A program made the position numbers and the translations under genes. Source: Catajapyx aquilonaris (Eukaryota). Taken from it: 64,000 nucleotides of DNA. The stretch spans positions 1 through 64,000 of the forward strand of contig KZ538162.1 of the NCBI GenBank assembly GCA_000934665.2. Reading direction: 5' to 3'. How positions within the stretch are numbered: the first letter of the stretch is position 1; every line of letters begins with the position of its first letter. This document shows positions 8,285 through 58,512 of this stretch, piece after piece. The notes beneath the pieces were generated by a model. The model was not told where the DNA came from and did not search any database. It was given only the letters and a program-made list of their open reading frames with translations.

Positions 8285-8313
8285 CCTTACCTGCAAATGA
8301 GAATAAAAGTCAG
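8285..8313 (-). other. Candidate recursive splice site (ratchet point) C
   Basis: Minus strand reads CTGACTTTTATTCTCATTTGCAG|GTAAGG (junction 8291/8290): CTGAC branch point, T-rich tract, CAG|GTAAG. Two GTATGT donors follow 43 and 63 nt downstream. Confidence 0.7.
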
Positions 8314-8770
8314 TGATTACGAGTGTTAGTCACTCTTTTCATGTACAGTATATAGAACACAGCTCCTTCCTATTTCCAGTGCTGATAAGCCGGTATGGCC
8401 TAGAGCAGTGGCGCTCCGAGCTGCAATTTCGTCCTGACAGCTATGCGAAAGTACAGGAGATGAACGTTCCAATCGATCATTTAAGACTGCCAGAGGGAAT
8501 ACCTTGCATGCGAATATGCTGTATATATCTAGCCCCGTCCCTCCCGAGATCCTGTAATCGATGATGCTCCGCATTGTACCTTACACAAGACGTGGTGTAG
8601 AATTTTCGCCTCCTCTTGCTTCGGCTTGTCTCGCTTCAGAATTGCCTTCATTTTTTTTGCTGACATGACGCTGTTAGAAGGAGACCATAGTGTCGACTTA
8701 TCGTACAGTTCATGTGTACACCAGTTAATTTCACTGCTAATCAAGTCATCATTTTCGATACTTATATGCC

Positions 8771-8982
8771 TACAGGGTGTTCCAAATTCGTGGGTCGTTT
8801 TTTATTACTGATATTGCCCGATATAGTTATTTTTTGTAGCTTGTTGTGCCATTAACCAGGTGCCCCATTTTGTAGCAACTGCTATATTAGACCCCCTGGG
8901 AGCCTAATTCAGGGCACAACAAGCTATACAAAAAATAACTACACTATCGGGCGATACCAGTTATTTAAAAAAACGCCCTACA
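8771..8982. mobile_element. Tc1/mariner-type MITE, copy 1 (right terminus truncated)
   Basis: Begins TA-CAGGGTGTTCCAA and has long imperfect TIRs (GTAGCTTGTTGTGCC ... GGCACAACAAGCTA). Homologous to the element at 15833-16052. Confidence 0.75.
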
Positions 8983-11900
8983 TATCACTCGCATGTTTCG
9001 ACTTGTTTCGACTTTTTCGGACTTGTATGCCGACAATATGTGATCTGAAGCCTGGTGTGCAAACCGAACCAGTGTCTCACGCTTCCTGCACCTATTTCGG
9101 ACCAAGGTTACTGTAATAATGAAGGATAGGCGTGTAATGAATAGACATCCAGCCAGCACTGATATTATACCGCGTGTGCTAGCCAGTAATCTAATCAGGG
9201 GGAACCGAGTGCTATGGGCGCTTAATTCGAAGCATGCAGGCATAAGCAGCCGGAGGTTAATCCAAGAGCGCCAATATGTACCCTGCAGATTTGAAAACTT
9301 GGGCTATTACCAAACGTCAATCTCACCCCCCTCAAAGTCCGGGCACTTCATCCCTAGATAACCAGAGGAGAAAAACAAGGCCCGAAACGAGGCCATGGAA
9401 GCGCAGCACTCTAATTAATAGCTTAATGCGGATAATCGACTTATTGATCCAAAAAGTAGGTATATAGGAAAAGGGGGGAGGGGGTCTAACAGTTTTTTTT
9501 TGTACCAATTTTTGCCCAAATAAGTGCATACGACAGCCGGATTCCTGAAGAAAAATATGATCGACGTTTTACTCGTTTCTTCATTTCCACTCCATTTTGT
9601 GCCCCCCCTCTTCTTCTTGTAACAATATCCTTCTATAATCCGCTCCTCAGCTTAATTTCCGCTTAGACCACAAGCGCTCCTCCAGATAGCAAAAAAAAAA
9701 AAAGAAATGTTCTGAAGAGAATCACAATCGAAGGAATTTTCTGGATCCCATGGAATCAAGCGGAATACACTCGACGACATGGATTAATTCGGAATGAAAG
9801 TCCGCCGCTTGGCTTCCTATGCGTGAAATTCATTGCAAGCCTAGTCTTTTCAACTATTAATCGAGAGAAAAGAAGCGAACGGTGGGACGATTGCCATAGT
9901 TATACCCTCTGCGACTGAAATTCGACCTACTTTACTAAAAACCTAGAACCTTACACGAAGGGGGGGGGGGGGGGNGGGTTTACTCGTCCTCTCTTTTAAT
10001 TCGCGCGTTTCGTATTCCGAGCGTTGGATAATCCGAGCTCCTAACTCCATTTCCCCAATACCTTTTTGATCTTAAATTCAATCGCGTCAGACCGCATTAG
10101 GAAACTTGTCATGAACTCGGCACACTCCAAAACCACGCGTTGCTTGTCTATGGTGCCAAAAGATTAATTAATGGCGTTATAGAGTCCATGCATATTGTAA
10201 GGCGACGGGGTGAGCAAAAAGTTTCTCTCGCGCCCCGACGCTGCTCTTGCTAATGCCATTGTTTCAGTATTTGTCGCGCTAATTTCACAGCCTACAGGAA
10301 GTACTGGGAATGAGGAAAAAAATATTGGGGGAGGAAAATTTTACGCAACCTAATTACCTCCATTTTTGCTATATGCCAACAATGTCAGTTTCACGCATTC
10401 TGTTGACTCAAAAACTGAGAATAAGTACTACGGTTGCAAGCCTGGAGGGAAAGCCAATAAAACCCAAAATGTGGCTAGAGATTGAAATGTCGGCTCGGAA
10501 TAAAAAGGCATCAATTCTAGGTTTTATAACTTTTCACTCCTGCATATAAAAAGAACATGGATATAAGAAGCCGATCCAGCCACGTAAAATCGACAGGGGA
10601 AAAAACTCGTGAAAGGTAGCAGAATCCATCATTTTTTTTTCAGGCTAGGCCTGGGCCTGGGAGTTAGGAGGGGTGGGCTTGTAAACAGTAGAATAATCAC
10701 GCGGCAATTGACCCAGGCCGATGAATAATCCAGCATGGGCCTCCCCGTGATTGCAAGATTACGGTTTAATGAAAAAACAGTGTGGAAGGCCCGATGCTGG
10801 GGAAATGCCGTTGGGAGAAGCTTCGGATGGCTCGTTTTAACTTACACCCCATTTTCGACCCGGAGACAACTGCGCAACCACGACTTTACAGCGCCCATTC
10901 CCGCCAGATAATGACCCGGATATGTCCCCTCCGCCATGAATAAGCGTATGGATCTGTATTATATTTAGATCGTAATAATGGACCCTATGGTTGAGCGGTA
11001 TACAGGACCTAGGTTGGTTGGGGAGTTTCGTAACAAAAAAAATAAAATTAGGTGAGTGAAGAGAAAATGGAAGGTGCATTGCTAACTAATCAGGGCCCTC
11101 CCATTGCGTTAATCAGGTGGTGTCACGAAAGGCAAGGGCAGGGTCTACGGTACCCAGGCCGATTTATTCTACGTAAGATACATGTAATTGCAGGGGTAAA
11201 ATCATTAATAACGGGCTGTCAATATTATTTGACAATAATTGGGGCAAATAACTAATTAATTAAATTAAATAGGAATATTCGTGTTTGATGTGTCAGGCGA
11301 TTTACATTATTATTATACTCTTCATTAAAGGTTATGGTTATTTTATCGCCGACTTGTTGACGGCTCGTTTCCAACTTTTCTTCCAACTTTTCCTCCATCA
11401 AACTGTGCCACCTGAACCGCCATCACCGCACCAAACACCCAACGTTATTTGGCTATTTTTTTGTGTGCCCCCCCCCCCCCCCCNCCCCCCAGCACAACTA
11501 ACGCGACGTGCGAGTCTCACAGTTGAGTTGTCGCAGCCAACCCGACAAAACTTTAGCCAAATTTGCTTAGGCGTCGGCTAATTACATGCAGAACCTCAAC
11601 TTTCCTGACAGCCCTACCCAGCCCCCATAATCGCATTTTATATATAAGAAAAAACTTTGTCGGCATGTAATTTTTTATGACCAACAACTCAAGAAGGGTA
11701 ACGACTATCCGTCGCAAAAATAATTTCCCGCGAGACACGTGCAACGGTCAGCCGGGAAATTTTCACCTGACAATATGGTGGATGATTTTTGCCAAAGCCC
11801 CTGCCGGCCAGATATACTTGGAGTGATGGGTGCACATAGGGTAATGATATGGGGGAGGCCCCGGGGCCTACCCTTGGGGACCCCTCCACAGATTAAAACC

Positions 11901-14160
11901 CAGTGTTGGCGCCATTCTAGCAACACCGACGCCATTACGTGCACAAGTGGCGTTATGCCGCTCAGAGATAAAATAGAGCCTATTTATTCAAATATTTACT
12001 CATTTAGCCGGAACGCTTACTCTGGTGCGGATGCTAAAGACTTTATGGGCCGCGTTGAGCCGGAGCTAGACTGACAGCTCTTTGGACTGCTGATTATTAC
12101 GCGATAAATAGAGACGATCATTTCAATGGAAAAAAGTGGGTGGTCATTTAGGGCTGGCGAATATATACACCCAAGGTTGGGCCTCAAGCTGGTGACAAAT
12201 TGCGGCCTCACACACCCCCATCATGCACAGCTAGTATCTCACCCTGGACAAAATGTGATATCGACAGTTGTGGCCAGTGGGGAGAAACTGTCTCGTGTCC
12301 ATAACTACATCAACACACTACCTGCTCAAGTGCTTCTGTGTCAATAAATTATGAATTCAGAGATGGCAATCTCCCTCTTGACTGGGGACATGGGGAAGGA
12401 AGAAAACAGGTCTTATCCTACAGGCGCATGCGAGGAGGATGGAAGCAGTCCAAATAGATCACGCAAACTGTGCTACAAGTTTAAGGGGTGGGGGTGGGTT
12501 CCACTTGGTCAAGTGTCGCCTCTCGAGAATATCATATGCAGCCACACCCATCGGGTTTTTTTCCAGAGTTATATCTAGGCACACACGCGCTTCTGCTTCT
12601 AGGATAAGTGGGATTTATCTCCAGATTTAGTGCTCGTTTAGGCTTATTCCAGCAGCTTACTTGATAGGCGTCAAGAGTGCTAGAGGTAATTAATTTTAGG
12701 TATTAGGAATTAGTCGTCAATATCCGGTTGCACGACCGACGTGCTGCAGGGCCTAATTCTGTGAAAAGGTTTGATCTGAAATCCGGAGTGAAAATAATGA
12801 CGCGATTATCGCAATATAAGCACGAATCATTGCTGGAATAAGGGGTCCACTTTTAACACTTTTGAGTGTTTGAGATACAGATAATCGTGCAATCGGTAAT
12901 TGTAAGATCACGTTTAAACATAGTAAATTTTTAACATAACATTCAGAACATTGTTTTTGGCTTTTCAATTGTGACTGTCCACAGTTGTATGAACGCAATT
13001 TCCCCACATATAATTTTTGGAATAATTTCCCCCCTGAATTGTAATAGGTCTAAATGGCGGTTAAGTGGTCGTATAAACAGATTGTGGCCAAAAATGACAT
13101 CAACTAAATTAATTCCCTTCCAGTGTAGCCAGACAGAGGTCAGACATTGACGGAAACAAATGGGGTATTCCAGACAAGGGTTCCGTCCCTTGCAATAAGC
13201 ATTATAATGCGCATTCCGAGGCATTTCCAGCAAGCAGAAGCATTAAAAGTTGTTTTGCCCGCTCCGATATTTTTGTCGCTCCGGATGAAACGCCTCCCAT
13301 TTCTGAGCTTGCAAAGCATAACTTCCCCTGGTGACGGAATAATACCAAAGAACCGGAGTGTTTTGCCATCGTGCCGAATCTGCAGGGCTAGGCAAAATCG
13401 CATATAAAAAGCGAGGACCCTGTTGGGGACGTCCAACGAAAACAGTCAAGATAACGTAGAGATTCGCTTTGTGCCGGGCATTGTTTCCAAACCACAGCAG
13501 CGCCGTTTAATTCCAGCATTCTAACACTGTCACTTCCTTTCTTTAATTAGGTCTTACGCCTAATTGCTGGAGCTTATTCACCCGGTGGTCTCTCTCGTTT
13601 TGGGAAACGGAAACGGAATCGCGGATTCCATATGAAGTTAACTTCACGAGTGCCTTTGCCTAGTAATGAATAAAAGGATTACGAATTAGCCAAATTATGT
13701 GGGAGCTTGGCGGGGGCCACCCGAAGATGAATAGTAATCGCGAAGCTTTGTGCGAGGATGAAACAGGGCCCTGGAGAGCCCTTGAGATTTGGTTACGTTA
13801 AGTTTCCTTTTGATGTAATTAACGAATGTGGAACGAGATTTCAGCGCTTTGTGGGGGAGTCGTATATAGCCACTCGTTTCCACTGTGGTATTACACTGGT
13901 TCCATTCGCCAACACAAAATTTGCAATTTTTAAGTGCGTCATTTTCAGCCTGCATTTGAGCCATGGGCCAGATGTATCCTTCAATGGAGAAGAAATGAAA
14001 GAATAATATATTAAGTTTGGGTTATTTGTTTTCTGTTCTATCGTCTGGTCAAGTCCACCTATGTGCCAGCAAGCCAGGATTTTCTGTACTCACATGCAAA
14101 CAATTACATGGTAAAATCTTTGGATTATCTCAGAACTGGTTTTTTGAACATTGGATTTCG

Positions 14161-14378
14161 GCAAGACTTTCATATCGGGAGACCGAATGTGGCAGGGGTA
14201 GGGGCATGCTGTACCAATCTATACCCCATGACCTTACCTTTCTTCCCGGAGGATACACGCCTAATCTTCAGCGGATACATGCCTAATCTTAAGCGGATAC
14301 ACGCCTATCTTTCAGCAGATACAATCTTAGGAAAGAAGGTAAACGTGCGGAGTCTCCCGATATGAAAGCGTAGCCCTG
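14161..14378. mobile_element. Non-autonomous DNA element (possibly hAT-type) with internal 22-bp tandem array
   Basis: Perfect 17-bp inverted repeat CTTTCATATCGGGAGAC (14167-14183) / GTCTCCCGATATGAAAG (14352-14368). The right end reads CAGGG on the minus strand. Internal GGATACACGCCTAATCTTCAGC repeats about 3.5 times (14251-14328). Confidence 0.6.
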
Positions 14379-15832
14379 GATTTCTCCCGTTTGTCCACGA
14401 TATGCCGGACCCTGTTGGTTTACAGCATATAGAGACATTCAACCCAAAGCTAATACTGAAATTTATACAGAGGCTGACTAATGAACGTGCATTGTCGATG
14501 ATGTTCAGCATTAAATAACATGTTGCTTGCTCCGCTACTGATTGCCCCTGTCATTCTGTTTGATTTGTAATACAGTCCGTACACATTCGCAGCAGGTTCG
14601 ATTCAACTAGGACGCTGTATATTGTTAAACTGAAGCTCGTAACAGTTAATATCGTCGCATATATTGTTATTATGAGACTGGAAGCTAAAGGGTGGCCCGA
14701 AAGAGATTTTTCCTCTCCGCGGTGGAGTGCACAGCAAAGCACAATTTCACAAATGCGGCAGACAAGCATTCGGCGGTGTAAGGGTCCATCTGGTCATCCA
14801 ATTTGCCCCGAATCCGAACAGCAACATTTCCTACTCAACCCGTCCCGAATGTGCACACAACTGTAGGCTCGGCCGTAGAGATAGACGACACGTCCTAATC
14901 TCCCAGTCCTATCACATGCTTTGGATTCGGCGCATGGCCGATTAACTTTATTATCGTGAATGCTATTGGGATTATGCGCTGATGGCCAGGAATAAATCGC
15001 TCCCGTGCTCGAAAGAGGGCTAATTAGCGGCTATTGTCTAATTATGCTGTTGTGCCAAGTGGCAGTCAATAAAAGGGGATGCAACCCGAATTCCATCGGA
15101 AATCATCCAGCGGAACCAATCCCCCGTTTATTAGCTCCCTGTAAGTTATATTTTTGTCCAAACCGATACAAGCAATCAGGCACACCCGGTCAAACTTATG
15201 CAACCTCATATAACAAAACCCTAGTCAGCTTCCTCCACCCCCCCCCCCCCAAAAAAAAAAAATCTAGAACTACTTGCAACACTTGCACCACCGCCTTTCT
15301 CTACCCACTTTTCTTTACGAGGCAGCTTGAAGAACGGGGCCAAGATTTGTGGGTAGAGTGCACGCGCGCCCAGGGCAATATACCGCCGCACTGCGCCTCC
15401 GCCATTTTTCCTATACTGCCAGAAGGGATTCTGACCACACGGCTATTAATTATTTGGCCCGATGCGAGGCACCGACCGACGTGGTACGTCTTGCTTGGGT
15501 GTGGAAAACTGAGGGGGGGTGCCCGAATCGCTTCATGGCGCCCAAAAGGCGCGGGCTCCACAAATTAATGGACATTTTCCTCGGGAGACACTGTCATTTT
15601 CGGGGGGGCGGGCCATTCCAGCTTGAGTAGTGTTTCGCCATTAGTAAGTGAGAATGACTTGCGTCTATGATTAATAGTTAGGTTTTTTTTACGGCGGGGG
15701 GAGGGGGGTTGTTTGCAAAGAGTGATACTGATGCCCATATGATGGAAGAAAATGGAGGTTGAGCCTGTATTAACCTCAGGATTAATCCAGATCAGGTTAT
15801 GTACGCTCTAAAAATTATTTAGTTGAACTATA

Positions 15833-16052
15833 TGTTCCAAGTTCGTAGGTCATTTTTTTAAATAACTGCATGCTATCGCCCGAAGTAGTTATAAAGTAGC
15901 TTGTTGTGCCCCTTGTTGTGTTCAAGAGGGTCGAATATAGCAGTTGCTATAGAATGAGGTACCTGGTTAGGGGCACAACAAGTTACAAAAAATAACTACT
16001 TTGGGTGATATCAATTATTTAAAAAAATGACCCACAAACTTGGAACACCCTG
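15833..16052. mobile_element. Tc1/mariner-type MITE, copy 2 (inverted relative to copy 1, left terminus truncated)
   Basis: Starts TGTTCCAAGTTCGTAGGTCATTTTT and ends TTGGAACACCCTG. The reverse complement of its internal spacer (CCAGGTACCTCATTCTATAGCAACTGCTATATT) matches copy 1 (CCAGGTGCCCCATTTTGTAGCAACTGCTATATT). Confidence 0.75.
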
Positions 16053-16405
16053 TTCATTTGATTAAAATATATTTGTTAAATATTTCTGAGTTAATATCAT
16101 GGAAAAATTCAATAATAGCCACTAAATGCTACGTTTGACAATGAATCCAAAAAGCAGACTTCTATTATTGGGTTGGAAAAAGAAGCAGTCTACACAGATC
16201 CAGCAGAGGTTGGGGAATCGCACGCATTTTCTTCCTCATAATTTAGGCAAGGAACTGCCTTAATTTCCGCCATCACCTTCCATTACGAGGGTCTCCCCGT
16301 ACTTTGCATGCGCCGGGACCACCCCCATGTTTCTTGATTTACTTCGGCGGGAATGTAAGCTTTTCCACAGCGGGGCGTGATTCAACTTTTCCCCTTTTGC
16401 AGACT

Positions 16406-16408
<3 letters not shown>

Positions 16409-16437
<29 letters not shown>
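16409..16437. repeat. (GA)n microsatellite
   Basis: Pure GA run. Further GA runs occur at ~19281-19302 and ~19424-19440. Confidence 0.9.
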
Positions 16438-16441
<4 letters not shown>

Positions 16442-16944
16442 CCCTGTGGCCCACAAAAATGAAAAATAAACGGCGGCGGGGGGGTGGGGAGGGGGGGGGG
16501 GTGCAAGAATGGTGTTTCTTTTCCATTGGCGCCCGCCGCCGAGTTCACCACTGTCACCTTCGTAAAGGCTAATGTGCTGGAGCGGAGTGATAAAGAGGCC
16601 TCAGCACCAGCTCCAATGACGAGCTGAGGAACACACGGGATCACACGGAGCGCCGTAAAACTTGACGCAAAAGAAGTCGGCCGTGATTTACGCTCGCACA
16701 TTCTGATTTCGATTTCTCCAACCCAACCCTCTCTAGCAACCTTGAGGCAATCGCGTGCAAACTTTTGCATCTGATTAGCATCCAGCCCAGTTAGCGCTGT
16801 GTACATATACTGAAATGAATGAGGCTAGATTTGGGTGTTGTCAACGCCATCCAAGCCACTTCTTGAGTGCCCCAATGTAGCAGGAAAGGCCCATAAAAAC
16901 ATACTATCGTGCAGGTATAGTTGACAGCCTGTTCTGAGGTCTGC

Positions 16945-17282
16945 TCAGTATATGTTCACGGCTCTGAACACTCAACAATATTTAAGTTTAACGAACTTAA
17001 ACAATGCATCATTCAACTACATCGGTTGGTTGAAGTCACAAAGATGCAAAAGACACAAACAAAGATGCCAAAGACACAGAGACAACGAAACCCATTTATG
17101 TTCAGTATATGTTCACGGCTCTAATGTATCATACAACTACATTACTACATCGGTTGTATACAACCGTATACTCGCATAACTCGTATAACTCGTATACAAC
17201 TACATCGGTTGGTTGAAGATGCCAAAGACATAGCCAGAGACAACACAAACCCATTTCTTTTTTTCAGTGTATGTTCACAGCT
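16945..17282. repeat. Degenerate ~160-bp tandem repeat (just over 2 units)
   Basis: TCAGT(A/G)TATGTTCAC(G/A)GCT recurs at 16945, 17102 and 17264. CAACTACATCGGTTGGTTGAAG and GATGCCAAAGACA...AGAGACAAC...AAACCCATTT are repeated in each unit. Confidence 0.85.
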
Positions 17283-20265: not shown

Positions 20266-20334
20266 AAGTTTATTGTGCCTATCTCTGATAATTGCTAATG
20301 TATAATAATTATCAGAGATAGGCACAATAAACTT
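20266..20334. repeat. Perfect 28-bp inverted repeat (69-nt hairpin)
   Basis: AAGTTTATTGTGCCTATCTCTGATAATT (20266-20293), a 13-nt loop, then its exact reverse complement (20307-20334). Confidence 0.95.
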
Positions 20335-20377
20335 ATTAACGTATTAAACGTATAATTTCTTCATTATTGTTACTACT

Positions 20378-20720
20378 GCGGGGAGATGAAGTGGCGCCGC
20401 GGTAACGCGCGCGCCCACGGATATGAAGGTCCCGGGTTCAATCCCCACCCGGGGTTGCCACCTTTATCTGTGCAGAGTTGGGCCATCTCTGGCTTCATTT
20501 CGAGTGGAAATATCCTAAAGACTAATCCACCCGGGGGAGTTCACAAAATGACCACTCAACGACAGCGCACACGCACTTTGCACATCCCCTCCCACCTACC
20601 CTTGGAGTAAACTAATAAGATCCTTCTTAACTCGCTCCAACAAATCCCGATGGTGGTAATCCACCCCCCCCCCAGGAGTAACTAGCTCCCCAAGTGGGGT
20701 AATGAAAAAAATAAAAATAA
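20378..20720 (+). mobile_element. tRNA-derived SINE, full length, with 15-bp TSD
   Basis: A-box-like TGGCGCCGCGG (20392-20402), B box GGTTCAATCCC (20435-20445) and an A-rich 3' tail. Flanking direct repeats ATTATTGTTACTACT (20363-20377) and ATTGTTGTTACTACT (20721-20735). Confidence 0.85.
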
Positions 20721-39300: not shown

Positions 39301-42300
39301 TTCTCCCTCTACCTGCACATGTACCCTGCTTATTCCGTGGGAAACCCAAAAAATATATATAGAGGCCACGAGTTAGAAGAACAAGAGGAATACCTTCGCT
39401 AGGGTCGTACCATGAATTATCGCCTCCCATTTATAGACGTCAGGTTAAATTCCAGCCCGTGTCACAAGCGCCGGCAGGAGGTCGGGGACATCCAAGGGCG
39501 TCGGATATAAATCAACACCTCTCTCAAGATCCCTCTTGCGGTCCCAGAAATTCCCGGCAACCCCCCCCCCCCACCCTTTCCCTGATAATTGAATAAGATA
39601 ATAGCATCAAGACTCTCAGGTTTCAATATGAAACTCTACGCAACGGCATTGTAAATGGTAACCTTAGTTGGCTCTTTTGGGGAAGCTCCGGTTTACAACC
39701 CGACCCCTATAGGGATCATAAAGGGGGTTTCGCCCTGGCATCATTAGCGTGGCTTTTTGTCTTGCCCTCCAAAATGTAAAGTGAGAGAACCATAGCACAG
39801 GTTGCATACCCTCAAGGTGACTGGCCTCTGGTCATAATTAAAACCTGCAAAATTATTATTTTTTCATAGGAATAAACCTGAATTTAATAATAATGGAAAT
39901 TTAAAGTGGGTTAATTCACATCTTGGCGTTCAGGTCTCTTCCACTTATTAAATATGTAGACTAGCAGAGGACCCGACGCTGGGTTCATATTCGAGGGCGA
40001 TTTAGGATTCTGCCACTTGCCCACCACATAAGTTGGCCATTTCTATGACCTCGGATCCCCCACCTGCAGTTCGGCCAATGCCCCGGCCATTCGCTCCTCG
40101 ATAGAGCCAGATAATCCTCTCGACTCTTGAATATCAGAATATCTGATAATTGCTAGAATTTGGGGGTGATAATACCTTTTCTTTCCTCGCCGCATTTGCA
40201 GATAATTACACCTATACTTTTGCGTCGGTGTATGAAAATACAGGTCCTCTGATCCATTGGGACTCAACGGAGAATGCTCCATGTTAATCGATATCAGAGG
40301 TGATAATGCATAATTAGGGACTGCGATTAGTGGCTCAGAGTCCTGACTACCACGTAACATTAAATGTTTACAAAGATCATAAATAAACCCTCCCAGTCTC
40401 CGTAATTGTACAAGTACACTGTGGCCTTTCACCACTTTTATCGGGGATTCATTGATAGAAAGACTATACGCTTTTATGGAGGAAAAAAAACATTCCGCAT
40501 ACTTTATCATAAATTAGAACTGTAATCCATTTGTTGCATACAAATTACGAGCACATCAGCATTTATGTTGAATTGTTATAAAAAAATACTATCTAGCTGG
40601 CACTAGTAAATTAATCAGCTACATCGAACGACTGGAGTAGTTTCTATACCGAATATGTCTACCTATAATAGAAACAGCATAATTATGCCATAATTTTATT
40701 CATCATTTCGGATAATGTAACCAGTGTATACGTATAACATCAATATATTGTAACGTCAATAAACGACATAATTCCCTCCCTGATTAAGAAGTTTGTACAG
40801 TCGTGAGTATAATAGGTAGGAATTGTCATAATTCTAGCCAACACTATACCATAATAGCTTAATTCTCGCCTTGAGACAGAAACATCTCCAGTTTTACAAT
40901 GAACTCATTGGCAGTTCCGCCCAATTATGCCCATCATTATGCTCGCTACTGTACAAGAAGGTTATGCGCCAAATTGGAATAAATGAAAGTAATTGTGTCG
41001 GAGTACTCCTACACATGACACACCAGCTTAAGTGACTTCATCATCATCATATGACGTACAAAGTTGAGAGGGTAAAAAAAAAAAACCCGGCTATTCATTA
41101 TGGAATATAGGCTCAGGCGACATAAAGGGGCCTTACTCGAAAGTTGTCATTCATCCACTTAATAAGTGATTGAACCATTCCATCGCGTTCCACTGACGCT
41201 TACCTCTAACGCTTTAATCAACAAGCTACTCAGTTTTCCGTAGACAGTAAAAAATCACTGATCAATACAATACCAGGAAGCTGGTCAAAAAAAACAACAA
41301 CACATAACAGCGTCACCCCCCGATCAAATTAAAGCAATTACATTTTGCGGCTCAACACCCAGAGCGACTCGCTATAGGCCTCCCACCACACATGTCAAAA
41401 AGCAAAGAGAGACTGACACACCTGCAATACCTTGTGTCAAGTATATATCACGAACCGGGGTCTCGCCAACAATTAAAAATTTCCGCTCTCACAAACCACC
41501 CTGGATGTTTTTTTTTAAAAAAAAAACAACTTTCTGACAGTTTGTCGGCTTCAAATGCAGCATCCTGAATACAACACGGCCAACACGTATAATCTATGCG
41601 TAGACCACACGGTTGTTGAAACAACACTACCGTTCATTGTGGATGCTAAACTCCACACAATTGTTAAGCACACCCTAGCTCAAATATACAAATGAGTACA
41701 AGGGGACGAACCAATCTCACAACAATCAATGACATCCCCTGTTGTTGATGCCTTATATAAAGCACCCCCTAACGCTCTCAAAAAATTGAAAATAATTTTC
41801 CACGCCCATTCCTAGGGGAGGGCCATATATAAAGGAGCAAAGGGGAGGAACATGACGAAACATTTTGGTTCAAGTTGAGCTAATATTGCCCTTTCTCCCT
41901 CGTTAGTATTCCGAGGTGAGTCACATCAAGCGTTAACGGCCGCGATAATGTACGGCAATAAGACGGAACGGTGGGCGGTGTTTCATTCGACGGCTTTTAC
42001 AACCAGATACACGAGCTGTAAGCCCTGGCGCACCCCTGTTATTATTTCATGATGATCGCGGAGATGTAGCCCAGTTTGCGGTCTAGTTAGAGGAACATGA
42101 GGCATATGTGACTGCCACCTAAAGCCCCTTCTCAAGTCAGCTTGTTGGGAACTGTGTATGTTAAGCGCAGGCCATCAAGACGGTCCAAGGGTGGCTTAAC
42201 AAGGAGAGAAGATTGGGACCCCAAGACATTGACAAGAGGGGGACTAACAGGATGGTTTGAAGGGGGAAATGGGCGTGTCCCCTGAGGGAATCACACACAT

Positions 42301-44554
42301 TCATTTTTCACTTCCAAATGACGGAGATTGCCTAGGGTTTCCTGACATAGGATCCCCTTATTATTACTGATGCTCTCAGGCGGCGAGTCTTTGTGTCGGC
42401 GGCCAGAAAAACATCCGGGAAGAGGATTTTGTAGATATAAATAGGATAATGTGCGGGTTTTTTTGGCAGGTGTTTATCCCAATATGCGTTACTGTATATA
42501 GGCAAGTGATGTGAAAAAATTCCGGCATGAATGATTTACTGTGAAAGTAGCCGCTGGCGAAATCCGGTGCGTGGAAAAATTAATGAAATGGCGGTTTCAC
42601 TCGCTCCAAGTGTCCCAAAGTTCGGAACTCCCTTCCTATAAACCAGGTTTTTTGGGTGGTTACGACCGTATTTTTTTGGACGAATCCAGCTTGCTAAAAT
42701 GTTTTTCCAAGAGTTTCCTTTTTGCAAACATCCAAGCGAGGCAAAGAACCCCTGGTGTTGTGTTGCATGTTGTGTCGTCTCTATACGACAGTGTGCCGCT
42801 TGGGGGGCACAAGCCCTTTTATTTAATCATGCACATTGTATGCAAGTTGTACGAGAGAGTAGAGTTCCATTGTCCGGTAAATGTCCAGTGATGGACAGCG
42901 AACAGTACACCCAATTTACTTTTTTAGGAAGAGGAAACCGCCACTACATCTTTTATTACTACACCACTATTATCTTCTAGTGGAGGATTTAACTTAAGAG
43001 TCAAGTGCAGGAGAAAATTTATTATCGACTATTTCCGCCCGTCTTTTGTGTCTACTGTCCCCCTAAGAAAACCCGGGCCTGTCCCATTGTTGACATGGCA
43101 GGAATTGTGACTTTGGCAGAGGCAGCTAATTTTCCGCATTATTCGTTTGGCAATTATGAGGGGCTTGACTGTTAAGATTTGTCATTTGGCGTGAATCCAG
43201 TGTCGGGAAGCGGCGGCCAATAGAGCGGGATCAAGGGATTGGGCATTCCAAATTAACTCCGGGGCTTGATTCTCTGAATGGATGTTGACTTCCAGCGGTC
43301 CAGAAACATTACTGCCATAAGTTTCAATATCGCTATAGGAGCAAGCTTACGTGCCTTGCATGATAGCGCATGATTCTTGTAATGCACGGGGAAAAAATGT
43401 CGGTGTTATAACTATATGCAACATCTGTCAATTTATGGCAAGGGAGGTCATAGTGTTCTCAAACAAAAAAAAAAACTTTTAAAAAAGGTATAACACCAAC
43501 GAAGTAGATTTTGTTGGCATGTGCCACGGAGCCCAGGAATATTTATCAGTAATCTGAAAAGTTACAGCGAACAATAACAATTTCTCATTATTAGAGCTGC
43601 ACCGAGCTCGTTTTGTATGCAGAGCGCGAAAGCCTTAGTCCACGATGCAAACCGATTGTCGGCGCTTCTCGCGCAAATTCCCCAAAGCTGCATTACATAA
43701 ATTATCTCTGACAATAACTCCGAGAGAGGGAGGTAGCAAAAAAAAAAAAAAAGTATTTAAAAGAGAATTGCAGCTATATTTTGTTGGGAGCACAACAGTC
43801 CATACTTTGGCCCTGTTTGTGCGAAATAAGTAGCGCAGAAAAATTGGACATTGCATGACCCTAACGAGAGTTGTTGTCCCGGCTTACGTAAAAATTACAC
43901 GTTTAATCTCTGGACGTGGTAGGAGAACCAAGCGGAACGGAAGAATCTCATCAACATTTATTAAAACATTTCCTGCCTGCATCCAATATGTCCTCTGGAC
44001 AGGGTATTTAAAAAAAGAATCGTTTAAGAGTTCCTTGGTCAAAGATCACGTGCAGGAAAAGCATTATAGAGCGAGGTAAAGCGTAACCTTTTGTAATGTC
44101 AATATTAGCAGTTGTTCCCACGACTCATAATTTGGGGACCCCCTGGTCAGGAAATCCTGTGCGGGGAGGTGGGGTCCTGCCTTGGGTAAGCGGGGGGGGA
44201 GGGGGTTTAAGGCCTCGTTAGAGGGGTCAGAGCGTTGATGATGACTTATCTCTTTCCATCGGCGTTTTCGAGATGGAGCTGCAAGTCGGCTCCAAAAGCG
44301 CACGCACGAGTCTCCACCACAATGAGCGCGATAAATCAAAGGGAGAATGTCACCCTCTTTGTGTGTGCCACGTTCACCGAGCCTGGCCCCGTCTGGCTTT
44401 TATAGCCGTATTTATCATCCATTGCCCCAAAACTGTGCTCTATTGCCCCTATACTACTATTCCTACTACTTTAGGATGCTCCCTGCCCCAACTAAACATC
44501 GATTCATCAATACAAATCGATATAAATCGGTAAATACCAATAAAAACGAATCTA

Positions 44555-44656
44555 CGACTTTTGGTTGCCGTGCCATTTGGCTGTCGTGACATTTGGTGAG
44601 CCAATTTAATCAGCATCCAAATGACCCGCAGCCAAATGACCGTCGGCCAGTAGTCG
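44555..44656. repeat. Small foldback element with CATTTGG sub-repeats
   Basis: CGACTTTTGG...CATTTGGCTGTCGTGACATTTGG pairs imperfectly with CCAAATGACCCGCAGCCAAATGAC...CCAGTAGTCG. Confidence 0.6.
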
Positions 44657-44675
44657 GCAGTTGAGTGGCATCTGA

Positions 44676-44867
44676 ATCGATAAATATCCGCTCAAGTCGA
44701 TAAATATCGATAAATATCCGATTAAGTCGATAAATATCGATAAATATCATAAGTCAATATCCGATTAAGTCGATAAATGTCAATAAATATCCGCTTAAGT
44801 CAATAAATATCGATAAATATCCGATTAAGTCGATAAATATCGATAAATATCAGTATAAGTCGATAAA
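44676..44867. repeat. Minisatellite, ~30-bp unit built of 10-mers (ATCGATAAAT / ATCCGATTAA / GTCGATAAAT)
   Basis: Direct tandem array of about 6 units. A degenerate 10-bp-periodic relative lies at ~44497-44553. Confidence 0.9.
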
Positions 44868-45830
44868 ATTTTAAAAATTCGATTTAAAGTTCAATTTCTG
44901 CCTTTTGTCACATCTGTTGAGTGTTAACACATCAGCGTACTTACACCAGAGGCTTCGGCCTTCGATGATAAAAATATTACAGTAGAGATACGCTATTCTT
45001 AAGAGATTAGGATCATGACTCGACGGTGCATCGTGAAGGGGGAGGTGTAATGAAATATCAAGTGAATTCATGCAATATTTTCAAGTACAAGAGTGGCATA
45101 GACTGCGCACTAAGCCGGGAGGATCATCCTCATGTTTTTTTTTCTTCTTTTTCATTGCCTGCTGGCTTTAAAAAGAAAGAAAAAAAAACAACAGAAGAGG
45201 CAACTTGCCGGAACGAGTGGAGGGAGGTACTGTAGAATATATCGTATATAAAAAAGTGCGCGCATTTTGTGCAGCACTCGCAGGCGAAGAGCACACAACT
45301 CCGCCCTATGGTTACTTAACTTGCAAATACCGGAAAAGCCGCTTGCTACGGGGCTTTTGCAGGCGATTAGTTTGCGTGGAGGAAGCCAGTCATGAATCAC
45401 CGTTTTTCTCATCATCGCCCTAATGTGTGCATGGAACCGTACCGGACTATACCCACTTTTTTATATATATTTTTTCCAGAGCGGGTGGGGGAGTATGCTT
45501 TAACCGACACGTGTTACGGGGACCCTGTAAAGATGAGCCCGCAATGTCCACATAACTATTCTAGGGGGGAGGCTAAAGCTTCAACGTAAACAGTGTCGGT
45601 ATGATGCCATGGGGGCGTCCCAAGGAGTACAAAATTAAGTGCAGACGGATAGAACGTTAGCCACAAAGTCCTTCGGCACACACGCATTGAATCAACCCAT
45701 GCAATCGGTCCATGTAATCGCAAAAGTCATCTTTTTTTGATTTCGCCCAATATGGCCATGTAACAAATATGGCCGATGTGCCCAATACAGCCAATATGCC
45801 CAATCGATCCAATCCAGACAGGGGGCCATC

Positions 45831-46061
45831 TGGACGGTGTTATGCAATAATGATTCAACCCACATAAGAACAGTTTTGAGAAAAAGGTCATACCTATGAA
45901 ATTAATTCAGTGTTCTTTTCGGTCATTTGTGGCAGAAATATGCAGATTTCGTCACCTTTGATTTGAACTGAATGAAGTACTATCCTTTGGGTGTATGTTC
46001 CTGGGCTTATCTCAATTTTGACATTTTTGTGGGTTGATCCATTATTGCATAATACCGTCCA
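45831..46061. mobile_element. MITE with ~33-bp TIRs
   Basis: Left end TGGACGGTGTTATGCAATAATGATTCAACCCACA versus reverse complement of the right end TGGACGGTATTATGCAATAATGGATCAACCCACA. The ends may extend to flanking GGCC. Confidence 0.75.
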
Positions 46062-47499
46062 TATAAGGCCAGTGTTGCTCACCTCATTAGAGGCAGTTTC
46101 TCCCCGTGTGTCACCAGCCATCCATCTCAATCCCAGGCCGATCCTACGGATTCTCACCAGCAACGACCTCTGGCTCTGTTCTGACAACAGCCAGAGACCT
46201 GGACCCGAAACACCCCCACAGACGCGTCTGTTGGATTTATGACTAATTAACGCCCCGCCAGCTCGGGCTGCTCTCCGGACTTTCCGGATGGGTCATGGGG
46301 GTCACCTCAAACCCAGACGCACCAGCTTTGTTCTTCCCCGACAGACTCCGGGGCCAAAAGCTGAATCAATATTTGGGCATATTCAGGCATACACATCTGG
46401 CCGCAATTAAGACGCCTGGTGACGATCATGCTAATTACGGACCCTAATGTAAATTTTTAATAGGAAAAAAAAGACTTGAGGGGGAAGGGATTCAATCAAG
46501 GGACAAAATTGCTTGGGAAACACGTTTTAAATAATCAATCGGTTTTAGCGCCCTCTGACCCCTATTTACAGGCCAAAAATGGCGCAGACTGCAGGATATA
46601 AACGTACTTATAACACCCTTCCCAAAAAAGATGCCCGTCAGCAAAAACCAGACCCAACTTGAGTTTTCACACCGCGTCACAAAGGAACCTGGGGCACGAT
46701 CTGGTCCAACTGCCAATCAGCGACTTTCCGCAATTTCCACCAACTACAAAGGCTGGCCAAAATCATTTGACAAAGACCACAGCAGGCAGCGCCCTCGCAC
46801 CTTATGTAAAGGTACTAATCCGCAGGTTCTTCTATATCAGGAAGAGGGTTTTTCTCTCCCCAAAATCCCGCAAAAGTCCATTCGGCCTTTACGCCGATTG
46901 GCACCCGAATTACACAGGGCACCAGGGGGAAGGAGGGGGAAAGACGGGGAGGGGTAGAAATTGGACGTCTGGCCACCTTCGTTTCCCGCCAGCCTTCCAC
47001 TTATTGCGCCGAGCATTTGGGGAATTGAAAATCAGTCCTAGGGGTCGTAGAAAAGGGGGGAGGGGTGGAAAAGGAGGGCAATGGTGACCCAATCCCATCA
47101 TTAGTCTGGGAATGGAAGAACTGGGGGAGGACGGGAATGAGCCGAGATATTGAGCTAGGTAGAGTAAACTGAAAAAAGGGGGAGGTAGGGGAAGGAGGGG
47201 GGGAGGGAAGTGAAAAAAACAGCTCCCTAGCTTGGGGGTCCCCGAGACGTTTCTAGATGGTCCATTTGCCTCGCCAACTGCCGTCTGGAGACACACAATG
47301 TAGGCGCGATTGACACCAATCGCCGCAACCCAAGGAAAAAGAAAGGATAATTGGGGCCCCTTTGGGCTCGGTCCTAATCCTAATTTACCGTCCCTTCCGG
47401 GCCAACCCTGCCTGTTATACCCTCTCACCATTGTTATGGTCAGATAATGTACTATCTGCCAAAAAAAATACAGATATATCCTGGAAGAGATGCAACCAA

Positions 47500-47652
47500 C
47501 ACTCGCCCAACCTGAAATATGGTCACAGTGCCCAATAAGGTCCAGTGTGCCCAGACGCTCAGTGTACCCAACACGCCCAGTGTGCCCAATACAGCCATGT
47601 TCCGCCTGATTAGACCCTCCTTTTCCGGCGGATCCTACTGGCACACCCTGTA
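47500..47652. repeat. 18-bp degenerate subrepeat array ending in a CACCCTG-TA (mariner-like) terminus
   Basis: GTGTGCCCA/GTGTACCCA units at ~18-bp spacing. TGTGCCCAATACAGCCA is shared with a similar array at ~45745-45805. Terminus CACCCTGTA at 47644-47652. Confidence 0.5.
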
Positions 47653-50600
47653 AGGGCAGGGTTCTATCATATATATACAGCAGCGGCTAATGCTGCACGC
47701 AACGACCGGAATGGAGAAACCACGTCAACGATATACCCCCATGTAAGCCAACCGGCAGATCCTATTAAAAATGCTCTCCGTACTGATTCAATTTAGCTTC
47801 ACCAGAGTGAATACTGGAAATCCTGCAGGGAACCAGATAATTAGGGGAAGCTTTTCCTGCGATATCCATTACCCTACTCTGAAAGCAGACTTGGCCGGAA
47901 GGCACTGCCGGATATTAGCCTATATTTACATCAAACGTTGTTTGGCGTCCGGGTCCGACTGTGGCGCCCCCTCTAATCACACCATAGCTCGTCACTGGTT
48001 CTGTCTGCATTGTCTTAGTCTGACACATGGTGCTAATGTCACTTGTGGATTAGCCGGATTGACGTTCGTTTCTGAATCAGGTTAGCACGACAGGCATTGG
48101 CCATTTTTTCCTTTCCCGGTAGCAAATTAGGTGAAACTCGGCTTTTATACATCGCACACAACAGGTCCCCTACTAGGAAAGAAATTAGATTTTTCTTCCT
48201 CAGAAAATCCGAAATGTGCGCAAAAAAAAAAAGCTAGTTGAGGGTATATATCCCTGCAAAGTACAATCTGTTTCAGACCTATTAGCTCCAGCTCCCATTT
48301 GCATGTTAGAGCTATTGTTCCTTAGATTAATAGTCCCCTCAACTCTTATCGATAAATTTTCCAAGTTGGCTCCCATGGAAACATGTGGTTCTCATAAATC
48401 ACTATCGGGCATCTAATACAGCTCGCTCCAGGTTCATATATACAAGCAAGGCTGCCAGCTCCAGAAATATTTATCTGCTAATATACTACATGCCGTCTCA
48501 CCTGATGCATAGATAACCCCTCGGTATAATTCGGGGGGGCCAAAGCAAGTTTACATCAGGTGGCGTCACCGGGTGTTGAATAATGCCTGAGTTTAAACTG
48601 GTGGGCTCGTAAGGGACGACAAATGTTACAGTCACACTCGTTGCCCGGCACTTATAAAAGTGTTTAACCGCAGTGAAAGTGTATCATCAAGTGAACCATT
48701 TTCATGCAGAGCACTGAACTATTAGTATTTTGCTCCAGCAGCTGTGCATAACATATGGAGGAAAAACTACGCCGTTGAAAAACCGCAAATCGAATGAAAC
48801 AGTTGGATTACTTCTAACTGCACAGAGAGGTTATGTATGAGTCTCATTACTCCTGCACTGTACTGACTGTTTTGTTACTCTTCCGCCCATCTCAACTACG
48901 CCTAGAGGGAATCGAAAGTTTATTATGCGGATTATTCTACTGCAACAAGTTGCAATTATTATACTTCACGTCTGAAACACTCTATTAGGGCTAGTATACG
49001 ATTCAAAAATGGAACAATTTTAAAGCCCTTTTATTAATGGCTGCCTGGAACCCACTGTAATATTACGCGGTACGTAGTTTTTTGCAATTTGCAACTCACA
49101 CAGCGGATAATAACTAACCCTGCGAGACTTGAAGATTTCCGATGGGGATCCCCCAAATTCGCACTACTTTGCATACCCATGATTTGCGACCTGGGTGGGG
49201 TCAACTACCTTGCAGATAGACACTGCAAAGATGACTTTTCTAGACTCTATGAAACCTCCAAAAAAGTTCGAGTCCGACTGAATATCCCCTTCCATTTTTT
49301 TCTTAAAAGTTTGCCCGTCTTTTCTGTGTTGGCTGCTGAATTATCGGTAGGCAGCACCGAGTCGAAGGAACTAGCCTTACTGTCAAAGCTGTTTACCAAT
49401 CCGAGATCGTGGAGAGAATCTACTACGTTTTATCCCCCACTTTCTTCCAATCGTCTTCTCCCTGCTGCTGCCATCCCCATCATCCATTCCTTTTTTCCTC
49501 TTATGATCAGCAGCAAAGGCCTACCTTCAACTGACAGAAGAAGGAAAGGCTTAACTAACAAAATGAAATCCCCGGATTTTTTTTTCCCCCTTCTTCTCTC
49601 TTTTCCGGGTCTTTTCACGGATAGCAGCTTTCGATGGGAATTGTGTCCGGAGGCTGCTTGATGCTGAGGATTATTTGGAAACAATCGTGCGATTAATTCC
49701 TTCTCGAATTGCCCCATTACTATTTTTATTTACTAGTTCAGAGCAGTATGGCCCGTGTCTTATTTCTTGACCGACAGAAAATATAGTCGATAAAATATTG
49801 ACGATTCTTGCAGTTCAAAGGATGTTTTTGTCTACATTTTTTTTTTCTTCTTCAAAGAGCTACTATTGAAAAGCTATAATTAACCTACGGAGGTCAATCG
49901 GGTTTGGATGAAAGAGTCAATATGACCTGGCACTGTACATAATAAAATGTTTACAAGTGCTGGCACACAAAGTGAATGTAAAAATAAACCAGGCTCCCTG
50001 GACTTTTAATTTACCAAAATTGAGTGTAAAAGTAGGCCGTTCTCATGAAATGGGAATGAAGAGCCGGGTTATATTCTCACGTAACGACTGTTCCAAAATG
50101 ACCTCTCTCGTCCGAGTTGTACAACGCTGTCGAGAGAAAAAGGTCTGGTGTGGGTACACGCACATCTTTCAAAAAAAAAAAGTGTCAGCCTCTAGCGAGA
50201 CAAGACCAGAAAAAAGGAGCAAAGTTTATGATGGACAACGTTACATAGCCTTTTTTTTCTCTGAAAGAAGTGAAGCAGACTGTAAAAGCAGCCATTCTCG
50301 TAGCCTTTTCTCTATTGGTTGGGTGCCTTTGGCCAAACGACCGACTCGATATAGACTTTTTTCTCCTCCGGAATCTGAGCGAAGGTGAACACGCAAAAGG
50401 TTTTTTCTGTAAGAATGACTAGTTTTAACCCTCTAAAAAAAATCTCCGTTTTCCATACATAGACTATCCGACCATAGTCTGCAGATTACGCGATTGGAAT
50501 CTACCTCCTTATCGATCTTCCACGCCCAGAACGTTAGTGCAGTAGCCTGAAATTGCACAGCCAGCTCCGACCATTGACATTATACCAGTACAATGGGATC

Positions 50601-50674
50601 TATCACACAGGTAACTACCGTGTCCCGGTGTGTGTAGGCAATTAGGCAGGCTGTTACGTACGACTCTGAAGTAC

Positions 50675-50707
50675 ACTCACCTGCAAAGAGAAGAAAGACA
50701 TGATTAG
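50675..50707 (-). other. Candidate recursive splice site (ratchet point) A
   Basis: Minus strand reads CTAATCATGTCTTTCTTCTCTTTGCAG|GTGAGT: branch-point-like CTAAT, pyrimidine tract and CAG acceptor directly abutting a consensus GTGAGT donor (junction 50681/50680). Confidence 0.7.

Positions 50708-58511: not shown

Positions 58512-58512
<1 letters not shown>

What the first reader, a model, noticed from the sequence alone, without database searches (positions are those of the whole stretch)
8285..50707. Three evenly spaced minus-strand recursive splice sites: a giant intron apparently removed stepwise
Seen: three acceptor-donor fusions on the same strand, CTAATCATGTCTTTCTTCTCTTTGCAG|GTGAGT (50681/50680), CACATTTTCCTTCACGTTAG|GTAAGC (30602/30601) and CTGACTTTTATTCTCATTTGCAG|GTAAGG (8291/8290). 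They are 20,079 and 22,311 bp apart, and I found no recognisable minus-strand coding exon between them. By eye, 3 of the 5 minus-strand YAGGTRAG octamers have a proper pyrimidine tract, versus 0 of 2 on the plus strand. Established: recursive splicing at such zero-length-exon 'ratchet points' subdivides very long introns in Drosophila (e.g. Ubx) and in some long vertebrate neuronal genes, and it is much less documented in other animals. Inference: the window lies inside a >42-kb intron of a minus-strand gene whose exons are outside the window, and this lineage uses recursive splicing.
Basis: partly seen in the sequence, partly recalled or inferred. Interest (0 to 1): 0.85.

Follow-up and report, generated by a model that had tools for sequence, protein, structure and literature searches.

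The report
Candidate recursive splice sites, unverified
Two, possibly three, spots on one strand of this gene-free stretch of animal-like DNA look like the combined "end-of-intron plus start-of-intron" signals that let some animals cut out a giant intron in pieces, but no RNA data could be obtained to show they are used.

Summary

They are not equally strong. I scored all 411 AGGT sites on both strands with a generic acceptor+donor matrix (weights recalled, not fitted to this organism).
- Site 50681 scores 16.5 bits and site 8291 scores 11.3 bits, ranks 1 and 2, far ahead of the rest.
- Site 30602 scores 5.6 bits, rank 4. It ties the best plus-strand site.

In Markov simulations, 0-4 of 1000 strands carry two sites of at least 11.3 bits. 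None of 500 carries three YAG|GTRAG sites with a pyrimidine tract. Lone donor and acceptor motifs show no minus-strand excess.

Sites 50681 and 8291 also have TT at -5/-6 and branch-point-like motifs in the range reported for Drosophila. Site 30602 has neither.

No coding exon was recognised in 354 ORFs scanned against Pfam.

No genome, RNA run or related sequence could be reached. Transcription, junction use and conservation are therefore untested.

Best reading, at about 0.5: real ratchet points in a long minus-strand intron, a known kind of element. Computational enrichment of such sites is already published for several invertebrates.

The parts
50675..50711 (-). Site 1, the strongest candidate ratchet point. 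Pyrimidine tract, then TTTGCAG|GTGAGT with the junction at 50681|50680. YTNAY branch-point-like motifs put the A at -24 (CTAAT) and -28 (TTCAC).
   Evidence: Sequence. Rank 1 of 411 AGGT sites, 16.5 bits. Best donor on the minus strand and third-best of 3,700 scored acceptors. Reached in 0, 0 and 1 of 1000 simulated strands. TT at -5/-6 read. Branch motifs.
30596..30621 (-). Site 2, a weak candidate. CCTTCACGTTAG|GTAAGC with the junction at 30602|30601. The donor is good and the acceptor poor.
   Evidence: Sequence. Rank 4 of 411 (5.6 bits; acceptor 2.0, donor 3.6), tied with plus-strand site 36174. G and C at -5/-6. The only YTNAY has its A at -7. It lies 1,116 bp from the midpoint between sites 1 and 3 (P about 0.05).
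8285..8330 (-). Site 3, a strong candidate ratchet point. TTATTCTCATTTGCAG|GTAAGG with the junction at 8291|8290. CTAAC puts the A at -36 and CTGAC at -20.
   Evidence: Sequence. Rank 2 of 411 (11.3 bits). Second-best minus-strand donor. A second-best score this high occurs in 1, 0 and 4 of 1000 simulations. TT at -5/-6 read. Branch motifs.
1..64000 (-). Inferred, not shown: part of one long minus-strand intron with no recognisable coding exon.
   Evidence: No Pfam hit above cut-off in 354 ORFs. No splice-flanked open exon candidate on either strand. No Rfam family or tRNA. Small G+T excess on the minus strand in 25 of 32 2-kb bins (p=0.002).

Best explanation
Sites 50681 and 8291, and less certainly 30602, are recursive splice sites (ratchet points, or zero-nucleotide exons) inside a long intron of a minus-strand gene. 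The gene's exons lie outside the window.

Inferred mechanism, taken from the Drosophila model:
1. While the intron is transcribed from high to low coordinates, the upstream exon is first joined to the acceptor at 50681.
2. That ligation places the exon end in front of GTGAGT and so rebuilds a 5' splice site.
3. The rebuilt site is then spliced to the next acceptor, which is 30602 if it is used and otherwise 8291.
4. The cycle repeats until the true downstream exon is reached.

The intron is thereby removed in pieces of 20-42 kb and nothing is left in the mRNA.

Shown: the motifs, their strand specificity and their statistical improbability. Inferred: transcription, strand, intron status and use in splicing.
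For: (1) Exact AG|GT fusions with acceptor and donor consensus.
(2) Of 411 AGGT sites on both strands, the two best combined scores are minus-strand 50681 (16.5 bits) and 8291 (11.3 bits). The next are 6.2, 5.6 and 5.6. The plus-strand top scores are 5.6, 3.2 and 2.1, close to the simulated means of 6.0-7.5, 4.2-5.5 and 3.1-4.3.
(3) Simulations: two sites of at least 11.3 bits occur in 1, 0 and 4 of 1000 strands. Three YAGGTRAG sites with a pyrimidine tract occur in 0 of 500, in each of three orders.
(4) The two best minus-strand donors among 3,595 scored GT sites are exactly these two sites.
(5) Lone motifs are not minus-enriched. GTRAGT is 22 plus against 20 minus. Y10NYAG is 16 plus against 9 minus. 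Acceptor-plus-GT alone is 5 against 5. This mirrors Shepard 2009, where only the fused RP-site is sense-enriched in large invertebrate introns (Tables 2-4).
(6) TT at -5/-6 at sites 1 and 3. Duff et al. report it in 196 of 197 fly ratchet points, against 44% of all introns.
(7) YTNAY motifs with the A at -24/-28 (site 1) and -36/-20 (site 3). Reported fly ratchet-point branch points lie mostly at -36 to -21.
(8) Segment lengths of 20.1 and 22.3 kb lie within 0.5 SD of the fly mean of 17,953 +/- 9,039 bp.
(9) The sites share nothing beyond the core motif, so they are not copies of a repeat.
(10) No coding exon was recognised.
(11) The minus strand is slightly G+T-rich in 25 of 32 bins. I recall, from no paper read here, that this is the sense-strand signature in mammals.
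Against: - There is no RNA, annotation or cross-species evidence of any kind. Transcription of the window, and its strand, are unknown.
- Site 30602 fails three features: a weak tract near the AG, no TT at -5/-6, and no branch motif in range. It scores no better than the best antisense site.
- None of the three sites has a good downstream 5' splice site at +20..+120 that could define the short cryptic RS-exon described for flies. The best scores are 0.3, 0.9 and -0.1, matched by 33-45% of random positions.
- If only sites 1 and 3 are real, the 42.4-kb segment lies 2.7 SD above the fly mean, though inside the reported range of up to 63.6 kb.
- The score matrix and the thresholds are generic, recalled and chosen after the fact. 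The window was picked from a very large scan, so windows significant at 1 in 1000 are expected by chance somewhere.
- The skews are small. Taken separately they are not significant by sign test (19 of 32 and 21 of 32 bins).
- In flies only 6% of introns longer than 11 kb carried ratchet points in the first survey.
Confidence: 0.5

Rival explanations
1. Chance. The motifs are unselected coincidences in non-coding, possibly intergenic, DNA. They were noticed because a very large number of windows was read and the criteria were fitted to what was seen.
For: - The total YAGGTRAG count is as expected: 5 observed against simulated means of 2.1-3.4, P 0.06-0.26.
- The third site is within noise.
- No supporting RS-exon donor.
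- No evidence of transcription, because no RNA run was available to test it.
- With P about 0.001-0.004 per strand per 64-kb window, a 1-Gb genome would hold tens of such windows by chance (my arithmetic).
- Background RP-site density on antisense strands is about 0.07-0.12 per 100 kb in published counts.
Against: - Two sites this strong on one strand occur in 0-4 of 1000 simulations.
- The plus strand behaves exactly as simulated.
- Both sites also carry TT at -5/-6 and branch-like motifs, which were not part of the selection.
- The density of 3.1-4.7 per 100 kb is 30-60 times the published antisense background. The scoring schemes differ, so this comparison is rough.
Confidence: 0.3
2. Each site is one ordinary splice site, with the other half of the motif there by accident. 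It would be either the acceptor of an unannotated non-coding, alternative or poison exon, or the donor of an upstream exon. For site 1 specifically, it could be the donor of a tiny first exon. A TATAAG lies about 40 nt upstream, and ATG TCT TTC TTC TCT TTG CAG runs straight into GTGAGT.
For: - Both halves are individually strong. Site 1 is the third-best acceptor and the best donor on its strand.
- The TATAAG and the in-frame ATG are directly visible.
- A 126-codon stop-free frame runs through site 1.
- In vertebrates most recursive sites are expressed RS-exons rather than silent ratchet points (passage).
Against: - An ordinary acceptor is followed by GTRAG only about 0.3% of the time: 10 AGGTRAG among 3,700 scored minus-strand AG. 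Two such cases in one window would be a second coincidence.
- No open, splice-flanked exon candidate on either strand.
- The frame through site 1 has no Pfam hit and no homologue, and it does not look coding.
- No downstream donor to close an exon after any of the sites.
Confidence: 0.15

Closest known systems
Drosophila intronic ratchet points (zero-nucleotide exons). Hatton 1998 and Burnette 2005 are known to me only as cited. Duff et al. 2014 preprint 10.1101/006163 was read whole.
   Same: - (Y)nNCAG|GTRAGT-type fusion.
- TT at -5/-6 at sites 1 and 3.
- Branch-like motifs near -36 to -21.
- No coding exon nearby.
- Segment lengths of 20-22 kb, near the fly mean of 18 kb.
- The fused motif is strand-specific, while lone donors and acceptors are not.
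   Different: - The organism is unknown.
- No junction, saw-tooth, lariat or conservation evidence.
- Site 2 lacks TT and a proper tract.
- G at -4 (TTTGCAG). I recall the fly logo as richer in T there, but no call checked this.
- No visible downstream cryptic-exon donor.
[quoted passage not shown] 2009, PMC2773006). Section 6 was read whole and other passages in part. The supplementary figures were not seen.
   Same: Same kind of evidence: motif score and strand asymmetry only. The published sense densities of 0.48-2.2 per 100 kb, against about 0.1 antisense, make a window with 2-3 such sites plausible for an invertebrate long intron.
   Different: Their counts use annotated introns over 50 kb and the Burnette 80% score. 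Here the intron is only inferred, and the matrix is my own recalled approximation.
Vertebrate recursive splicing through RS-exons (Sibley 2015, Blazquez 2018), as summarised in PMC8605326 (passages) and in the search listing.
   Same: An AG|GT site regenerates a 5' splice site after the first ligation. Such sites lie in long genes.
   Different: The vertebrate mechanism depends on a defined RS-exon with its own downstream donor, and none is evident here. CpG observed/expected of 0.76 argues against a vertebrate genome, from recalled vertebrate values.
Pseudoexons, poison exons and decoy splice sites in long introns (the DMD pseudoexon review PMC7175933, seen in the search listing only).
   Same: Strong intronic splice-site-like motifs with no coding content.
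   Different: Those need a separate acceptor and donor tens to hundreds of nt apart. Here the two are fused with zero length.

Membership tests
Drosophila-type intronic ratchet point (zero-nt exon recursive splice site) | [quoted passage not shown] | tested here: met
   All three sites. Combined scores are 16.5, 11.3 and 5.6 bits, ranks 1, 2 and 4 of 411 AGGT sites. The middle site meets this only marginally.
Drosophila-type intronic ratchet point (zero-nt exon recursive splice site) | Prominent pyrimidine tract with TT at -5/-6 (196 of 197 fly sites) | tested here: inconclusive
   Met at 50681 and 8291 (TTTGCAG). Not met at 30602 (G and C at -5/-6), whose acceptor scores 2.0 bits. So 2 of 3.
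Drosophila-type intronic ratchet point (zero-nt exon recursive splice site) | Branch point about -36 to -21 from the acceptor | tested here: inconclusive
   YTNAY motifs with the A at -24/-28 (site 1) and -36/-20 (site 3). Site 2 has only -7. This rests on motif presence alone, and no lariat data exist.
Drosophila-type intronic ratchet point (zero-nt exon recursive splice site) | Fused motif enriched on the sense strand over the antisense strand, while lone donors and acceptors are not | tested here: met
   3 against 0 by the simple rule. The top two of 411 are both minus. GTRAGT is 22 against 20, and long-tract acceptors 16 against 9 in favour of plus. Taking 'sense' to be minus is itself an inference.
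Drosophila-type intronic ratchet point (zero-nt exon recursive splice site) | Lies inside a long intron (11-133 kb in flies) of a transcribed gene | not testable with these tools
   No genome or annotation is held. No RNA run was listed. There is only indirect support: no recognisable exon and a weak G+T skew.
Drosophila-type intronic ratchet point (zero-nt exon recursive splice site) | Exon-to-ratchet-point junction reads, saw-tooth read density and recursive lariats | not testable with these tools
   The look-up of sequencing runs listed no run, so read laying could not be used.
Drosophila-type intronic ratchet point (zero-nt exon recursive splice site) | Motif much better conserved than other AG|GT sites of the same intron | not testable with these tools
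   No related sequence was found: earlier windows, metagenome scans and protein-level searches.
Drosophila-type intronic ratchet point (zero-nt exon recursive splice site) | Short cryptic RS-exon (about 50 nt) closed by a downstream donor (Joseph 2018, as described) | tested here: not met
   The best donor at +20..+120 scores 0.3, 0.9 and -0.1 bits, and 33-45% of random positions do as well. The matrix is generic, and I assume that weak cryptic donors would be missed.
Drosophila-type intronic ratchet point (zero-nt exon recursive splice site) | Segments removed are 2.6-63.6 kb long, mean 18 kb | tested here: met
   20,079 and 22,311 bp, or 42,390 bp if site 2 is not used.
Vertebrate-type RS-exon | A defined exon that starts with a 5' splice-site sequence and is closed by its own donor | tested here: not met
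   No downstream donor, and no splice-flanked open exon candidate.

The most novel reading that the evidence does not exclude
The window comes from an animal lineage in which recursive splicing has never been shown experimentally. There, a giant intron is removed constitutively in three or more steps of about 20 kb at fly-style zero-length exons. One of them would be a middle ratchet point that works without the TT/pyrimidine-tract signature that is nearly universal in Drosophila. That would imply that spacing, and not only motif strength, is selected.
Probability: 0.15. Interest if true: 0.5.

Novelty: new member of a known kind. Interest (0 to 1): 0.3.

Why it matters
If they are real, these sites would be further examples of stepwise removal of a giant intron. 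The mechanism is well established in Drosophila. Outside flies it is supported mainly by motif counts (sea urchin, mosquito, bee, beetle) and by single-gene work in locust.

The practical value is modest. The finding gives two precise coordinates, 50681 and 8291, at which one total-RNA or nascent-RNA experiment, or RT-PCR from the upstream exon, would give a yes-or-no answer. The weak mid-point site offers a small test of whether spacing is selected.

Without the organism's identity or any RNA data, this remains a prediction of a known kind.

Tried and rejected
- RNA evidence: the look-up of sequencing runs (kind rna, 45501-55500) listed no RNA holder; none was listed.
- Whole genome: none is held.
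- Earlier scan notes: nothing for this genome or for look-alikes. A word search returned two unrelated findings.
- Metagenome scans: exact matches to the window's last 49 bases and to a 26-mer across site 1 gave 0 hits each.
- Protein homologues: none for the stop-free frame through site 1 (126 aa) or for the longest ORF (258 aa).
- Rfam: 0 families. tRNA: 0.
- Pfam: 0 hits above cut-off in 354 ORFs. One hit below cut-off, Toxin_11 at 17.2 bits against a cut-off of 25, at 62285-62524(-), is taken as chance.
- ORFs not scanned: the 198 plus-strand ORFs of 48-74 aa, and the 74 of 215 minus-strand ORFs of that size that lie outside about 8.1-51.1 kb.
- Amino-acid-composition scan of all frames: nothing looked coding.
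- Splice-flanked exon search: one candidate per strand, and neither has an open frame.
It was rewritten.
- One literature search was badly aimed and useless.
- A 2026 preprint on sequence features of human recursive splicing concerns the upstream 5' splice site, which is outside the window. Only the abstract was read.
- Strand-skew literature was seen only as a search listing. The skew argument therefore rests on recall and is given little weight.
- A shared repeat as the source of the three motifs is rejected.
Full report
**The observation.** TTTCTTCTCTTTGCAG|GTGAGT has its junction at 50681|50680. CCTTCACGTTAG|GTAAGC has it at 30602|30601. TTCTCATTTGCAG|GTAAGG has it at 8291|8290. The spacings are 20,079 and 22,311 bp. 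The window has 201 AGGT on the plus strand and 210 on the minus strand. YAGGTRAG occurs twice on plus and five times on minus. The pyrimidine fraction of the 20 nt upstream is 0.85, 0.75 and 0.75 at the three sites, 0.50 and 0.50 at the other two minus sites, and 0.25 and 0.40 at the two plus sites.

**What the window is.**
- It is 45% G+C, with CpG observed/expected of 0.76.
- It has no Rfam family, no tRNA and very few internal repeats.
- The 42 N fall largely in or beside homopolymer runs, which suggests a draft assembly.
- I scanned 213 stop-to-stop ORFs of at least 75 aa on both strands. None hits Pfam above its cut-off. One cysteine-rich hit lies below it, at 17.2 bits against a cut-off of 25.
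- None of 141 minus-strand ORFs of 48-74 aa across the interval hits at E<=0.001.
- A crude search for acceptor-ORF-donor exons found one candidate per strand, and neither has an open frame.
- An amino-acid-composition scan found nothing that looks coding.

The window is therefore eukaryotic non-coding DNA. From the mild CpG depletion and the lack of transposon domains I infer an invertebrate animal, but no tool named the organism.

**Is it more than chance? Simple rule.** The rule is YAG|GTRAG plus at least 15 of 20 pyrimidines upstream. About 5-6% of all positions have such a tract. Strands simulated with Markov chains of order 1, 3 and 5, trained on the minus strand, carry on average 0.11, 0.10 and 0.15 such sites. 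Three were reached in 0 of 500 simulations in each order. The Poisson equivalent is 1.5e-4 to 5e-4. The enrichment lies in the fusion, not in its halves:
- Acceptor-plus-GT alone is 5 against 5 on the two strands, as expected.
- GTRAGT is 22 plus against 20 minus.
- Long-tract acceptors are 16 plus against 9 minus.

**Is it more than chance? Graded score.** I used generic acceptor and donor weights recalled from memory, not fitted to this organism. Ranking all 411 AGGT sites gives 50681 at 16.5 bits and 8291 at 11.3 bits. Then come 26617(-) at 6.2, 30602(-) at 5.6 and 36174(+) at 5.6. In 1000 simulations per order:
- a best score of at least 16.5 occurred 0, 0 and 1 times;
- a second-best of at least 11.3 occurred 1, 0 and 4 times;
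- a third-best of at least 6.2 has P 0.02-0.10;
- a fourth-best of at least 5.6 has P 0.01-0.06.

The plus strand's top scores (5.6, 3.2, 2.1) match the simulated means. The two best donors among 3,595 scored minus-strand GT sites are exactly sites 1 and 3, and site 1 is also the third-best of 3,700 scored acceptors. Two sites are therefore clear outliers, and the middle one is not.

**Independent features.** Duff et al. (preprint read whole) report TT at -5/-6 in 196 of 197 fly ratchet points, against 44% of all introns. They place branch points mostly at -36 to -21 and give segment lengths of 17,953 +/- 9,039 bp (range 2.6-63.6 kb).
- Sites 1 and 3 both read TTTGCAG, so both have TT at -5/-6. 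Site 2 has G and C there.
- YTNAY motifs put an A at -24 and -28 (site 1) and at -36 and -20 (site 3). Site 2 has only one, at -7.
- The 20.1- and 22.3-kb segments are within 0.5 SD of the fly mean. Without site 2 the segment is 42.4 kb, which is 2.7 SD above the mean but within range.
- Site 2 lies 1,116 bp from the midpoint of sites 1 and 3 (P about 0.05, judged after the fact). This is the only thing that speaks for it beyond its good donor.
- The three sites share no similarity beyond the core, so they are not copies of a repeat.

**Evidence against.** The short cryptic RS-exon with its own downstream donor, described for fly ratchet points (passages of PMC8605326), is not visible. The best donors at +20..+120 score 0.3, 0.9 and -0.1 bits, no better than 33-45% of random positions. 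The G+T excess of the minus strand is small. The T-over-A skew is 1.9% and the G-over-C skew 3.2-3.3%. Their sum is positive in 25 of 32 2-kb bins (p=0.002), but taken singly they are positive in 19 of 32 and 21 of 32 bins, which is not significant. Reading this skew as a mark of the sense strand rests on my recall of mammalian work, not on a paper read here. My thresholds were set after seeing the sites. At about 0.001-0.004 per strand per window, a large genome would hold tens of such windows by chance.

**What could not be done.**
- No genome is held.
- No look-alike windows or notes exist.
- Two exact-match metagenome scans found nothing.
- Two protein-level searches found no relatives.

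Transcription, strand, junction use, lariats and conservation are the defining evidence for recursive splicing, and all of them are untested.

**Comparison with what is known.** The closest kind is the Drosophila zero-nucleotide-exon ratchet point. Pai et al. report recursive sites in 63% of fly introns over 40 kb (passages). Shepard et al. 2009 (section 6 read whole) counted RP-sites per 100 kb on the sense and antisense strands of introns over 50 kb:

| Species | Sense | Antisense |
|---|---|---|
| Fruit fly | 2.20 | 0.10 |
| Mosquito | 1.03 | 0 |
| Beetle | 0.81 | 0.10 |
| Sea urchin | 0.54 | 0.07 |
| Bee | 0.48 | 0.12 |
| Vertebrates | about 0.1 | about 0.1 |

In their tables, lone donors and acceptors show no strand excess, which is the pattern seen here. 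A locust study predicted a recursive site by motif in a 230-kb intron and tested it by U2AF65 RNA immunoprecipitation (passages). Lungfish appear human-like (abstract only). A motif-based prediction of ratchet points in a non-Drosophila invertebrate is therefore not new in kind. The supplementary figures of Shepard et al. and the site tables of Duff et al. and Pai et al. were not seen. They could refine the motif comparison.

**Verdict.** The most likely reading, at about 0.5, is that 50681 and 8291 are real recursive splice sites in a long minus-strand intron, with 30602 perhaps a third at about one chance in three. The rivals are chance (0.3) and ordinary or cryptic exon boundaries (0.15), which include a possible tiny TATA-ATG first exon ending at site 1. 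Novelty: a new member of a known kind. Interest: 0.3.

Noticed in passing
window 50681-50725 (-): Just upstream of site 1 there is a TATAAG about 40 nt before the junction. An ATG opens the frame ATG TCT TTC TTC TCT TTG CAG, which runs straight into GTGAGT. The 'pyrimidine tract' could therefore also be read as a tiny first coding exon (MSFFSLQ) with a strong donor.
   Followed up: partly
window 28829-32016, both strands: A cluster of unusually long stop-free frames surrounds site 2, in overlapping frames on both strands (206, 227, 254, 175 and 162 aa), in a slightly GC-richer stretch. None has a Pfam hit. This looks like a compositional effect or a decayed element rather than a gene.
   Followed up: partly
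window 8798-8897 and 15925-16024: A 100-nt inverted repeat pair, 82% complementary, with 7,027 nt between the arms. The left arm lies about 500 nt from site 3. It could be the ends of a mobile element or two copies of a short interspersed repeat.
   Followed up: no
window 44647-44882: A degenerate tandem array built on TCGATAAATATC-like units (periods of 20, 30 and 73 nt; about 7 copies).
   Followed up: no
window 60972-61011, 9943-9975, 22051-22053: There is a 40-nt near-pure G run, plus other G or C homopolymers. Several of the window's N positions fall inside or beside these runs, which suggests a draft assembly with unresolved homopolymer lengths.
   Followed up: no
window 26617 (-): A fourth minus-strand acceptor-donor fusion, T13ACAACTAG|GTGATA. 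The tract is good and the donor poor (6.2 bits, rank 3 of 411). All 5 minus-strand YAG|GT sites with a pyrimidine tract have a purine at +3, against 1 of 5 on the plus strand.
   Followed up: partly
whole window: There is a small but consistent G+T excess on the minus strand: T over A by 1.9% and G over C by 3.3%. The sum of the two skews is positive in 25 of 32 2-kb bins and shows no sign change along the window.
   Followed up: partly
window 28869-28917, 16408-16437, 58513-58545: Perfect microsatellites: (CTT)16, (GA)15 and (ATC)11.
   Followed up: no
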